DNA from: Escherichia coli
Lineage (GTDB): Bacteria > Pseudomonadota > Gammaproteobacteria > Enterobacterales > Enterobacteriaceae
Strand: one strand, 5' to 3'
Assembly: GCF_003334815.1 (NCBI RefSeq)
Contig: NZ_QOWO01000061.1
DNA: 10,623 nucleotides
Made by a program: the position numbers. Each line of letters begins with the position of its first letter. The stretch's first letter is position 1. Positions 6,001 to 9,000 of the stretch are shown here, piece after piece.

Positions 6001-9000
6001 CGGCAAAATCGCGCCGAAGGATGTCGCTGCCGACTGGGCAATGGAGCGCCTGCCGGCCCAGTATCAGCCCGTCATACTTGAAGCTAGACAGGCTTATCTT
6101 GGACAAGAAGAAGATCGCTTGGCCTCGCGCGCAGATCAGTTGGAAGAATTTGTCCACTACGTGAAAGGCGAGATCACCAAGGTAGTCGGCAAATAATGTC
6201 TAACAATTCGTTCAAGCCGACGCGCTTCGCGGCGCGGCTTAACTCAAGCGTTAGATGCACTAAGCACATAATTGCTCACAGCCAAACTATCAGGTCAAGT
6301 CTGCTTTTATTATTTTTAAGCGTGCATAATAAGCCCTACACAAATTGGGAGATATATCATGAAAGGCTGGCTTTTTCTTGTTATCGCAATAGTTGGCGAA
6401 GTAATCGCAACATCCGCATTAAAATCTAGCGAGGGCTTTACTAAGCTTGCCCCTTCCGCCGTTGTCATAATCGGTTATGGCATCGCATTTTATTTTCTTT
6501 CTCTGGTTCTGAAATCCATCCCTGTCGGTGTTGCTTATGCAGTCTGGTCGGGACTCGGCGTCGTCATAATTACAGCCATTGCCTGGTTGCTTCATGGGCA
6601 AAAGCTTGATGCGTGGGGCTTTGTAGGTATGGGGCTCATAATTGCTGCCTTTTTGCTCGCCCGATCCCCATCGTGGAAGTCGCTGCGGAGGCCGACGCCA
6701 TGGTGACGGTGTTCGGCATTCTGAATCTCACCGAGGACTCCTTCTTCGATGAGAGCCGGCGGCTAGACCCCGCCGGCGCTGTCACCGCGGCGATCGAAAT
6801 GCTGCGAGTCGGATCAGACGTCGTGGATGTCGGACCGGCCGCCAGCCATCCGGACGCGAGGCCTGTATCGCCGGCCGATGAGATCAGACGTATTGCGCCG
6901 CTCTTAGACGCCCTGTCCGATCAGATGCACCGTGTTTCAATCGACAGCTTCCAACCGGAAACCCAGCGCTATGCGCTCAAGCGCGGCGTGGGCTACCTGA
7001 ACGATATCCAAGGATTTCCTGACCCTGCGCTCTATCCCGATATTGCTGAGGCGGACTGCAGGCTGGTGGTTATGCACTCAGCGCAGCGGGATGGCATCGC
7101 CACCCGCACCGGTCACCTTCGACCCGAAGACGCGCTCGACGAGATTGTGCGGTTCTTCGAGGCGCGGGTTTCCGCCTTGCGACGGAGCGGGGTCGCTGCC
7201 GACCGGCTCATCCTCGATCCGGGGATGGGATTTTTCTTGAGCCCCGCACCGGAAACATCGCTGCACGTGCTGTCGAACCTTCAAAAGCTGAAGTCGGCGT
7301 TGGGGCTTCCGCTATTGGTCTCGGTGTCGCGGAAATCCTTCTTGGGCGCCACCGTTGGCCTTCCTGTAAAGGATCTGGGTCCAGCGAGCCTTGCGGCGGA
7401 ACTTCACGCGATCGGCAATGGCGCTGACTACGTCCGCACCCACGCGCCTGGAGATCTGCGAAGCGCAATCACCTTCTCGGAAACCCTCGCGAAATTTCGC
7501 AGTCGCGACGCCAGAGACCGAGGGTTAGATCATGCCTAGCATTCACCTTCCGGCCGCCCGCTAGCGGACCCTGGTCAGGTTCCGCGAAGGTGGGCGCAGA
7601 CATGCTGGGCTCGTCAGGATCAAACTGCACTATGAGGCGGCGGTTCATACCGCGCCAGGGGAGCGAATGGACAGCGAGGAGCCTCCGAACGTTCGGGTCG
7701 CCTGCTCGGGTGATATCGACGAGGTTGTGCGGCTGATGCACGACGCTGCGGCGTGGATGTCCGCCAAGGGAACGCCCGCCTGGGACGTCGCGCGGATCGA
7801 CCGGACATTCGCGGAGACCTTCGTCCTGAGATCCGAGCTCCTAGTCGCGAGTTGCAGCGACGGCATCGTCGGCTGTTGCACCTTGTCGGCCGAGGATCCC
7901 GAGTTCTGGCCCGACGCCCTCAAGGGGGAGGCCGCATATCTGCACAAGCTCGCGGTGCGACGGACACATGCGGGCCGGGGTGTCAGCTCCGCGCTGATCG
8001 AGGCTTGCCGCCATGCCGCGCGAACGCAGGGGTGCGCCAAGCTGCGGCTCGACTGCCACCCGAACCTGCGTGGCCTATACGAGCGGCTCGGATTCACCCA
8101 CGTCGACACTTTCAATCCCGGCTGGGATCCAACCTTCATCGCAGAACGCCTAGAACTCGAAATCTAACGTCCGTTCGGGCATCGAGGTCCATGTCGGGGT
8201 GGGACGGGCCCGTGGCTTCAAGATCACTTGCAGTCCGACCGCGATGTCTTGGTTGCGCGAGAGGTTGTCGATATCTGTTGATTTGCACCCAAATTTGACC
8301 CGGGATTTGCATTGAATTTTGACCCACCCCTTGTTGTCAGAATTATGTCTCGATTTTCAGTTTGCGGGTCTGTTTTTCCTCCTGCTTATTCTGAGTTGAA
8401 CTGTGTTTGAAGCGGTAACTTTCATTGCCGGTTTCCAGGATGTGGCAGTGGTGGGTTAGTCGGTCCAACAACGCTGTTGTCATCTTTTCATCGCCAAACA
8501 CTCGGCTCCATTCCGAGAAGCTCAAGTTGGTGGTCAGTATCACGCTGGTTTTTTCGTACAGCTTTGAGAGCAGGTGAAACAGCAGTGCCCCACCGGTTTG
8601 GCTAAAAGGCAAATATCCCAGCTCATCCAGAATCACCAAATCGGCATACAACAGACGGTTTGCGATTTGTCCCTGACGCCCAGATGATTTCTCTTGCTCC
8701 AGTGCATTGACCAAATCCACGGTGGAGAAGAAACGCACCCGTCGGTTCAAGTGCATCACTGCTTGTGTACCAATGGCTGTGGCCAGGTGAGTCTTGCCTG
8801 TGCCTGGCCCACCAATCAGCACCACGTTCTGGGCTTGTTCCATGAAGTCGCACCGGTGCAATTGTTTGACCGTGGCCTCATTAACCAGGCTTTGACTGAA
8901 GTCAAAGCCCACCAAGTCCCGATACACGGGGAACTTGGCCACCCGCAATTGATAGTTCACCGAACGTACTTCACGCTCTGCCACTTCAGCTTTAATCAAG

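What the first reader, a model, noticed from the sequence alone, without database searches (positions are those of the whole stretch)
6198..6256. Single-cassette array: only one attC in the window, directly followed by the 3'-CS
Seen in sequence: one attC (inverse core GTCTAAC 6198-6204, core GTTAGAT 6250-6256) and then immediately the qacEdelta1 upstream region. No second cassette or orphan attC is present. This is the minimal In2-type array, not an expanded multiresistance array.
Basis: seen in the sequence. Interest (0 to 1): 0.3.

Follow-up and report, generated by a model that had tools for sequence, protein, structure and literature searches.

The report
Single aadA1 attC of Tn21 integron
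The flagged 59 bases are the well-known recombination site (attC) of the aadA1 streptomycin-resistance cassette in the Tn21-type class 1 integron, and it is the only such site in the window, so the finding is correct but ordinary.

Summary
Confirmed and already known. The window is the left part of Tn21. It differs from plasmid R100/NR1 by one base over 10.6 kb and is 100% identical to E. coli ECOR 3 plasmid RCS85_pI. GTCTAAC lies at 6198-6204 and GTTAGAT at 6250-6256, as reported, directly after the aadA1 stop codon.

I built two covariance models from attC sites of other plasmid arrays. The first recovered nine held-out attCs. The second recovered all three attCs of R751. They score this site at 71-73 bits (E about 1e-15). 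The next candidates in the window score 11.3 bits or less, and nothing in 6257-8350 exceeds 3.3 bits. One attC and one complete cassette (5396-6250) is therefore right.

Two refinements:
- The 3'-CS that follows is itself the front 393 bp of a second cassette, qacE. It matches R751 at 394 of 395 positions, but its 141-nt attC is gone, so it cannot move.
- This attC is 59 nt, not the canonical 60. One C is missing in the apical stem. The form occurs in 1 of 2100 plasmids, in no complete E. coli genome and in no metagenome contig. The predicted hairpin is 4.7 kcal/mol weaker, while the integrase-binding boxes and bulged bases are intact. It is either a private mutation or a sequencing error.

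Interest is low.

The parts
4243..5256 (-). intI1, class 1 integron integrase gene
   Evidence: ORF; annotated as IntI1 (WP_000845048.1) in the matching records R100 and RCS85_pI
5141..5169 (+). Pc cassette promoter, weak form (TGGACA, 17 nt, TAAGCT)
   Evidence: Read from the sequence. Assignment rests on established knowledge of class 1 integron promoters. The generic sigma-70 scan does not flag it
5260..5288 (+). P2 promoter in its 17-nt-spacer form (TTGTTA, 17 nt including GGGG, TACAGT)
   Evidence: Read from the sequence. PMC10124037 describes P2 of In2 as having three extra G in the spacer
5349..5401 (+). attI1 end of the 5'-CS, with the R box GTTAAAC at 5395-5401; cassette junction between G5395 and T5396
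   Evidence: Rfam RF02912 'AAC_AAD_leader / attI site' at 5349-5427, 73.9 bits; GTTRRRY at 5395; 5'-CS end located
5396..6250 (+). aadA1 gene cassette, 855 bp (856 bp with the canonical attC)
   Evidence: Bounded by the G|TT crossover points of GTTAAAC (5395) and GTTAGAT (6250)
5405..6196 (+). aadA1 coding sequence, ANT(3'')-Ia
   Evidence: AMRFinder call at 100% identity in the matching records; stop codon TAA at 6194-6196
6198..6256 (+). attC (59-base element) of aadA1. R'' 6198-6204, L'' 6210-6219, apical stem-loop 6220-6234, L' 6235-6243, R' 6250-6256. The bottom strand is the recombining strand
   Evidence: CM R1 71.1 bits; CM R2 73.0 bits, with alignment; inverted repeat I1; DNA folds
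6206..6213 (-). Extrahelical bases of the folded bottom strand: T opposite top-strand A6206 and G opposite top-strand C6213 (T-N6-G arrangement)
   Evidence: Unpaired in the minimum-free-energy fold of the bottom strand. The aadA1 attC is listed as a T-N6-G attC in PMC3053210
6222..6224 (+). Site of the 1-nt deletion (GACGCCGC to GACGCGC) in the apical stem
   Evidence: The only difference from R100 over the whole window. Unique to NZ_LT985321.1
6251..6643 (+). Start of the 3'-CS, which is the 5' part of the qacE cassette, truncated and without its attC
   Evidence: Window 6249-6643 (two bases of aadA1 cassette plus this part) is 394/395 identical to R751 33787-34181. R751 continues into a 141-nt qacE attC at 34241-34381. 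No attC in window 6257-8350
6359..6706 (+). qacEdelta1
   Evidence: ORF; annotation
6700..7539 (+). sul1
   Evidence: Annotation (coordinates shifted by the 1-nt indel relative to R100)
7667..8167 (+). orf5, GNAT family acetyltransferase, last gene of the 3'-CS
   Evidence: ORF; annotation
8343..10623 (-). IS1326 genes istB (8343-9128) and istA (9115 to beyond the window end), interrupting the 3'-CS
   Evidence: ORFs; annotation

Best explanation
Window 6198-6256 is the attC site (59-base element) of the aadA1 cassette of the class 1 integron carried by Tn21. It is the only attC in the window.

Mechanism, from established integron biology and not tested here: when the DNA is single-stranded, during replication or conjugation, the bottom strand folds into an imperfect hairpin. 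R''/R' and L''/L' pair to form two integrase-binding boxes. Two bulged bases (T and G, six nucleotides apart) mark the bottom strand for IntI1. IntI1 cleaves between A and C of the bottom-strand AAC triplet, which corresponds to G|TT of the top-strand GTTAGAT at 6250/6251. The site then recombines with attI1 (G|TTAAAC at 5395/5396).

With one attC, only two reactions are available. One is attI1 x attC excision of the 855-bp aadA1 cassette. The other is insertion of incoming cassettes at attI1.

The sequence downstream (3'-CS) starts with a qacE cassette that lost its 3' end and its attC, so qacEdelta1-sul1-orf5 are fixed in place.

This copy of the attC lacks one C in the apical GC-rich stem. 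The binding boxes and bulges are untouched, but the predicted hairpin is weaker.
For: Identity. The whole window is 100% identical to NZ_LT985321.1. It is identical to R100 (NC_002134.1, Tn21) apart from one base. The gene order tnpA-tnpR-intI1-aadA1-qacEdelta1-sul1-orf5-IS1326 is annotated in both records.

Site anatomy. The core and inverse core sit at the stated coordinates and flank an inverted repeat with 21-nt arms. The bottom-strand MFE fold pairs the R and L boxes and leaves T and G unpaired six nucleotides apart.

Model evidence. CM R1 was built from 12 attCs of other cassettes. It recovered all 9 held-out attCs at 14-44 bits and scores this site at 71.1 bits. CM R2 scores it at 73.0 bits. 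R2 also finds the three attCs of R751, which were not used in training, at 35-47 bits. The model's helices show covariation across 25 distinct attCs: 90% of cells paired, and 0 of 500 shuffles reach the observed score.

Uniqueness. No other hit above 11.3 bits anywhere in the window, and none above 3.3 bits in the 3'-CS.

Truncated qacE. Window 6249-6643 is 394/395 identical to R751, and the R751 qacE attC is absent from the window.

Literature. In2 of Tn21 carries an aadA1 cassette followed by a 59-base element, qacEdelta1 and sul1 (PMC10124037). The attC architecture and bottom-strand selectivity are described in PMC5027507.
Against: Nothing contradicts the assignment. Four caveats apply.

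- No recombination was measured here.
- The home-built models used shortened calibration and 12 or 28 training sites, against 96 for IntegronFinder. A very divergent attC scoring below about 11 bits could in principle be missed. The weakest real sites seen scored 14-15 bits with R1.
- The 59-nt hairpin is only moderately more stable than shuffled sequence (z = -2.4, against -4.9 for the canonical 60-nt site).
- The deletion may be a sequencing artefact.
Confidence: 0.97

Rival explanations
1. The window holds one or more further, cryptic attC sites, for example at 2408-2518 or 440-593, or a remnant inside the 3'-CS. The array would then not be truly single-site.
For: 440-593 has a strict RYYYAAC...GTTRRRY pair that is 6/7 complementary. 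2408-2518 gets 11.2 bits, E=0.36, with R2. A lone GTTAGAT sits at 7524-7530, at the end of sul1.
Against: About one strict pair is expected by chance in 10.6 kb, given about 10 sites of each kind (my estimate from the counts). 440-593 is not reported by either model at E<=10. 2408-2518 has AGC/GCT in place of the AAC/GTT that is invariant in all 25 real attCs. It lies inside tnpA and scores the same as the wrong strand of the true site. GTTAGAT at 7524 has no inverse core within 160 nt. The best model hit in 6257-8350 is 3.3 bits. All these stretches lie inside coding regions that are conserved in Tn21.
Confidence: 0.02
2. The 59-nt attC, with its 1-nt deletion in the apical stem, is a real mutation of the ECOR 3 plasmid. 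It changes how readily the hairpin folds, and so changes the aadA1 excision frequency.
For: It is the only difference from R100 in 10,623 bases. It falls in the variable terminal structure, and the predicted bottom-strand stability drops from -18.8 to -14.1 kcal/mol. PMC5027507 reports that the VTS influences strand selectivity indirectly.
Against: It is a singleton: 1 of 2100 plasmid records, 0 of 929 E. coli records, and 0 metagenome contigs against at least 120 for the canonical form. A single-base deletion in a GC-rich hairpin is a typical assembly or sequencing error. The R and L boxes and the extrahelical bases are unchanged, so any functional effect may be small.
Confidence: 0.4
3. The hairpin acts mainly at the RNA level, as a stem-loop in the Pc/P2 transcript that attenuates transcription or translation of downstream genes, rather than as a recombination site.
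For: The top strand also folds (-13.6 kcal/mol). PMC10124037 notes that 59-base elements may cause premature transcription termination.
Against: No run of T follows the stem, and the terminator scan finds nothing in 5050-6400. The conserved features (AAC/GTT triplets, L-box covariation, asymmetric bulges) are those of an integrase substrate. An RNA effect would be an additional role, not an alternative one.
Confidence: 0.1

Closest known systems
attC (59-base element) of the aadA1 cassette in In2 of Tn21 (plasmid R100/NR1, NC_002134.1)
   Same: Same position, same flanks, same R''/L''/L'/R' boxes and the same extrahelical T and G. The whole 10.6-kb context is identical.
   Different: One C fewer in the apical stem (59 vs 60 nt). 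The predicted bottom-strand hairpin is 4.7 kcal/mol less stable.
Tn402/Tn5090 integron of plasmid R751 (dfrB3-orfD-qacE, each cassette with its own attC)
   Same: The start of the qacE cassette is 394/395 identical to window 6249-6643, and it begins at the same GTTAGAT junction.
   Different: R751 keeps the full qacE gene and a 141-nt attC. In the window the cassette is cut at about 6643 and joined to sul1, so that attC is missing.
Multi-cassette clinical class 1 integrons, e.g. dfrA12-orfF-aadA2, dfrA17-aadA5, and the aadB-catB8-blaOXA-10-aadA1-dfrA1-aacA4 array of L004
   Same: Same 5'-CS, attI1 and 3'-CS. The last attC is always joined to GCACTAAGCACATAATTGC.
   Different: Those arrays have two to six cassettes, and all but a few collapsed junctions in L004 carry an attC. 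The window has one.
In2 as described in the literature (aadA1, 3'-CS, IS1326 carrying IS1353, tni remnant)
   Same: The aadA1 cassette, the 3'-CS and IS1326 sit at the same positions.
   Different: IS1353 lies outside the window. The only record identical to the window has IS1326 followed directly by tniB, with no IS1353, whereas R100 has it.

Membership tests
integron attC site (59-base element) | Inverse core RYYYAAC (R'') at the 5' end and core GTTRRRY (R') at the 3' end, mutually complementary | tested here: met
   GTCTAAC at 6198-6204 and GTTAGAT at 6250-6256, 6/7 complementary
integron attC site (59-base element) | Invariant AAC ... GTT triplets at the crossover boxes | tested here: met
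   Present at 6202-6204 and 6250-6252. These triplets are invariant in 25 distinct reference attCs
integron attC site (59-base element) | Second pair of inverted boxes (L''/L') giving an imperfect hairpin, with structure conserved rather than sequence | tested here: met
   Inverted repeat with 21-nt arms. The fold pairs GTT/AAC and AAGCCG/CGGCTT. Full-length match to the covariance models at 71-73 bits
integron attC site (59-base element) | Asymmetric extrahelical bases on the bottom strand (here T-N6-G), which mark the recombining strand | tested here: met
   In the bottom-strand MFE structure, G44 and T51 are unpaired with six nucleotides between them. The aadA1 attC is classed as T-N6-G in PMC3053210
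integron attC site (59-base element) | Located directly 3' of a promoterless ORF, in an array that starts at attI next to an intI gene | tested here: met
   The site starts 2 nt after the aadA1 stop codon. intI1 and attI1 lie immediately upstream
integron attC site (59-base element) | Recombined by an integron integrase as folded single-stranded DNA | not testable with these tools
   Needs an in vivo recombination assay or an IntI1 binding assay
Class 1 integron with 3'-conserved segment (clinical type) | intI1 and attI1 (5'-CS), followed after the cassettes by qacEdelta1-sul1-orf5 | tested here: met
   Annotations of the matching records. The 3'-CS start sequence is shared with ten other arrays
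In2 of Tn21 | aadA1 as the sole complete cassette, inside a Tn21 backbone (tnpA, tnpR upstream of intI1) | tested here: met
   One attC only. One-base difference from R100 Tn21 over 10.6 kb
In2 of Tn21 | IS1326 inserted after orf5 | tested here: met
   istB at 8343-9128 and istA from 9115 to the window end
In2 of Tn21 | IS1353 inserted in IS1326 | tested here: inconclusive
   The position lies beyond the window end. IS1353 is present in R100 (IS3-family transposase after istA) and absent from the identical source record NZ_LT985321.1

The most novel reading that the evidence does not exclude
The one-base deletion in the apical stem of this attC is a genuine natural variant, not a sequencing error. 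By weakening the folded bottom strand by about 4.7 kcal/mol, it measurably lowers IntI1-mediated excision of aadA1. That would help keep a one-cassette array stable in an old (ECOR collection) plasmid.
Probability: 0.12. Interest if true: 0.15.

Novelty: already known. Interest (0 to 1): 0.05.

Why it matters
It matters little beyond correct annotation. Knowing that the window holds one mobile cassette (aadA1, 5396-6250), one attC, and a fixed qacEdelta1-sul1 segment tells a reader which resistance gene can still be excised or displaced by IntI1 and which cannot. The Tn21 integron has been a textbook case since the late 1980s. The only unusual point is a singleton 1-nt deletion in the attC apical stem. 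It is more likely an assembly error or a neutral private mutation than a functional change.

Tried and rejected
(1) A strict consensus scan (RYYYAAC ... GTTRRRY, 50-160 nt) cannot support a negative claim. In the fetched reference arrays it missed many true attCs, including those of VIM-2, dfrA7, dfrA12, dfrA17, dfrA25, arr-3, IMP-6 and catB8. I therefore replaced it with covariance models.

(2) Rfam has no attC family. Its only relevant hit is the attI/aminoglycoside-leader family at 5349-5427.

(3) The supplement of the IntegronFinder paper, which holds the attC training set, is not held in the library. Training sites had to be extracted from plasmid arrays instead.

(4) The first MAFFT alignment of 14 attCs (A1) misplaced the 3' arms of dfrA27 and dfrA12 relative to the structure. 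I dropped both from the seed (A2) and brought them back through model-based alignment (A5).

(5) Alignment A4 picked up two wrong-strand hits at E=0.5 and was discarded.

(6) The candidates 440-593, 2408-2518 and the lone GTTAGAT at 7524 were examined and rejected as attCs.

(7) The generic promoter and terminator scan found nothing in 5050-6400. The Pc and P2 assignments therefore rest on direct reading and prior knowledge.

(8) Liebert et al. 1999 (the Tn21 review) could not be retrieved under the id I tried.

Full report
**1. What the window is**

A megablast of the whole window against 72,556 plasmids finds at least 5000 matching records. The window is 100% identical over all 10,623 bases to E. 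coli ECOR 3 plasmid RCS85_pI (NZ_LT985321.1). It matches R100/NR1 (NC_002134.1), the classical carrier of Tn21, and many other plasmids over 10,624 bases with a single gap.

The annotation of those records, together with the ORF list, gives the following map:
- tnpA 35-3001 (-)
- tnpR 3004-3564 (-)
- intI1 4243-5256 (-)
- aadA1 5405-6196 (+)
- qacEdelta1 6359-6706
- sul1 6700-7539
- orf5/GNAT 7667-8167
- IS1326 istB 8343-9128 (-) and istA from 9115 to the window end (-)

Rfam places its 'AAC_AAD_leader / attI site' family at 5349-5427 (73.9 bits). That is attI1 and the start of the first cassette.

**2. The observation**

The two heptamers close the longest imperfect inverted repeat found in 5200-8400 (21-nt arms, 15 nt between them). 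The site begins two bases after the aadA1 stop codon.

From 6251 the sequence GCACTAAGCACATAATTGCTCACAGCC... follows. The same sequence follows the last attC of ten other class 1 arrays that I fetched, whatever their last cassette is: aadA1, aadA2, aadA5, aadA16, aacA4, catB3, dfrA7, dfrA25 or cmlA5. 'Directly followed by the 3'-CS' is therefore correct.

**3. Is it an attC, and is it the only one?**

A strict consensus scan gives only two core/inverse-core pairs 50-160 nt apart in the window. One is the flagged site. The other is 440-593 inside tnpA, and about one such pair is expected by chance (my estimate from the counts). The same scan missed many genuine attCs in the reference arrays, so it cannot carry a negative claim.

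*Model R1.* From 12 plasmid arrays (L002-L013) I extracted the attCs that follow each cassette gene. I aligned 12 of them, with aadA1 left out (A2). I imposed the R-box and L-box pairs as the structure and built R1.

With filters off, R1 recovered every attC held out of training:

| Held-out attC | Bits |
|---|---|
| orfF | 44.5 |
| VIM-2 | 43.5 |
| dfrA12 | 39.0 |
| lnu(F) | 29.3 |
| dfrA25 | 27.4 |
| OXA-2 | 23.7 |
| dfrA27 | 19.0 |
| arr-3 | 15.2 |
| arr-2 | 14.1 |

The only other hits, all at E>=0.58 and 13.2 bits or less, were the reverse strands of true attCs, one weak minus-strand hit in L012 and the 2408-2518 hit in the window. R1 scored window 6198-6256 (+) at 71.1 bits, E=1.3e-15.

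*Model R2.* I built R2 from the 28 model-aligned sites (A5). On that alignment the imposed pairs are 90% standard pairs, against 75% in shuffles. Seven of the nine L-helix pairs show changes on both sides. None of 500 shuffles reaches the observed covariation score. As an independent control, R2 finds all three attCs of R751/Tn402, none of them used in training: dfrB3 41.2, orfD 47.4 and qacE 34.7 bits.

*R2 on the window, both strands, filters off.*
- 6198-6256 (+): 73.0 bits, E=3.7e-16.
- The same site on the minus strand: 11.3 bits.
- 2408-2518: 11.2 bits, E=0.36.
- Everything else is below 7 bits.

The 2408-2518 hit lies inside tnpA. It has AGC...GCT where all 25 distinct real attCs have the invariant AAC...GTT.

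Restricting the search to 6257-8350 gives nothing above 3.3 bits. The lone GTTAGAT at 7524-7530, at the end of sul1, has no inverse core within range. About ten GTTRRRY heptamers per strand are expected by chance in 10.6 kb.

There is one attC.

**4. Anatomy and mechanism**

Folded as single-stranded DNA, the bottom strand pairs R' with R'' (7 bp) and L' with L'' (GTT/AAC, then AAGCCG/CGGCTT). It leaves G (opposite top-strand C6213) and T (opposite A6206) unpaired, six nucleotides apart. This is the T-N6-G arrangement reported for the aadA1 attC (PMC3053210).

Established work (PMC5027507) shows that attC sites recombine as folded bottom strands. Extrahelical bases, the unpaired central spacer and the variable terminal structure together set the strand choice.

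It follows, by inference and not by test, that IntI1 would exchange strands at G6250|T6251 and at G5395|T5396 in attI1. The mobile unit is therefore 5396-6250, which is 855 bp. TTAGAT at 6251-6256 formally belongs to the next cassette.

Upstream I read two promoters from the sequence: Pc in its weak form (TGGACA-17-TAAGCT, 5141-5169) and P2 with the 17-nt spacer containing the extra G residues (5260-5288). This is the pairing described for In2 (PMC10124037). The generic promoter scan does not flag either, so this rests on reading and prior knowledge.

**5. Refinement 1: the 3'-CS is a decapitated second cassette**

Window 6249-6643 is 394/395 identical to R751 33787-34181, which is the qacE cassette starting at the same GTTAGAT junction. 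R751 then continues with the end of qacE and a 141-nt attC at 34241-34381. In the window the similarity stops at about 6643, and the sul1-carrying segment follows.

So 'no second cassette' holds only for complete, mobile cassettes. The qacE remnant has no attC and is fixed in place.

**6. Refinement 2: this attC is 59 nt, not 60**

The single difference between the window and R100 over the whole 10.6 kb is one missing C at 6222-6224, which changes GACGCCGC to GACGCGC in the apical stem of the attC.

How often the 59-nt form occurs:
- Among 2100 plasmid records that match the site, only NZ_LT985321.1 has it. 1989 records fall in the 95-99% identity band, and the listed ones carry the one-gap (98.5%) 60-nt form.
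- None of 929 matching records in 5,426 complete E. coli genomes has it.
- An exact 34-mer spanning the deletion is absent from the metagenome contigs, while the canonical 35-mer occurs in at least 120 contigs.

The deletion breaks the 6-bp apical stem. The predicted bottom-strand energy rises from -18.8 to -14.1 kcal/mol (z-score from -4.9 to -2.4). The R and L boxes and both bulged bases are untouched, and the model score falls only from 77.8 to 71.1 bits.

This is either a private mutation of the ECOR 3 plasmid or a sequencing or assembly error in a GC-rich hairpin. The tools cannot decide between the two.

**7. The name 'In2'**

The cassette content, the 3'-CS and the IS1326 position match In2. 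The IS1353 copy that is part of In2 in R100 lies beyond the window. It is absent from the only record identical to the window, where IS1326 is followed directly by tniB, tniA and the mer operon. 'In2-type' is a fair label, but strict identity with In2 cannot be settled from the window.

**8. Verdict**

The feature is the long-known aadA1 attC of the Tn21 integron, so novelty is 'already known' and interest is low. The only loose end is the singleton one-base deletion in the apical stem.

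Noticed in passing
window 6222-6224: One C is missing from the apical stem of the attC relative to R100 and nearly all other records (59 vs 60 nt). 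It is the only difference from R100 in 10.6 kb. It is unique to ECOR 3 plasmid RCS85_pI and weakens the predicted hairpin by 4.7 kcal/mol.
   Followed up: yes
window 6251-6643, compared with L015 (R751) 33789-34381: The start of the 3'-CS is the front part of the qacE cassette. The aligned stretch, window 6249-6643, is 394/395 identical to R751. The cassette's 141-nt attC, present in R751, is missing here.
   Followed up: yes
window 5141-5169 and 5260-5288: Pc in the weak form (TGGACA/TAAGCT) plus P2 with a 17-nt spacer containing the extra G residues. Read by eye; the generic promoter scan does not detect either.
   Followed up: partly
window 5349-5427: Rfam RF02912 ('putative aminoglycoside riboswitch / attI site') matches at 73.9 bits across attI1 and the first codons of aadA1. 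A long ORF (5186-6196, 336 aa) also runs from the 5'-CS through attI1 into aadA1.
   Followed up: no
window 7524-7530: A second GTTAGAT heptamer, identical to the attC core, lies just before the sul1 stop codon. It has no inverse core within 160 nt and no covariance-model hit, so it is consistent with chance.
   Followed up: yes
window 7470-7482 / 7580-7592: A 13-nt, 92% complementary inverted repeat (CACCTTCTCGGAA / TTCCGCGAAGGTG) brackets the sul1 stop codon, 97 nt apart. Its function is unknown.
   Followed up: no
L136 (NZ_LT985321.1 10000-24000) vs L001 (R100): The record identical to the window has IS1326 followed directly by tniB, tniA and mer, with no IS1353. R100 has an IS3-family (IS1353) transposase between istA and tniB.
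   Followed up: partly
window 2408-2518 (+): Weak attC-model hit (11.2 bits, E=0.36) inside tnpA. It lacks the invariant AAC/GTT triplets and is judged to be noise.
   Followed up: yes
L004 3470-3495, 4283-4318 and 4785-4825: In the Providencia array the junctions OXA-10|aadA1, aadA1|dfrA1 and dfrA1|aacA4 lack normal attCs. They carry either an attI1-like AAACAAAGTTAAAC or collapsed sites of about 15 nt such as TGTCTAATAAAATGTTAACC. These may be deletions or assembly collapse.
   Followed up: no
L006 2515-2625: A fragment of about 110 bp from the 3'-CS start sits between the dfrA27 attC and the aadA16 gene, ending in GGGAGTTAGAC. A piece of the qacE cassette leader is embedded in the array.
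   Followed up: no
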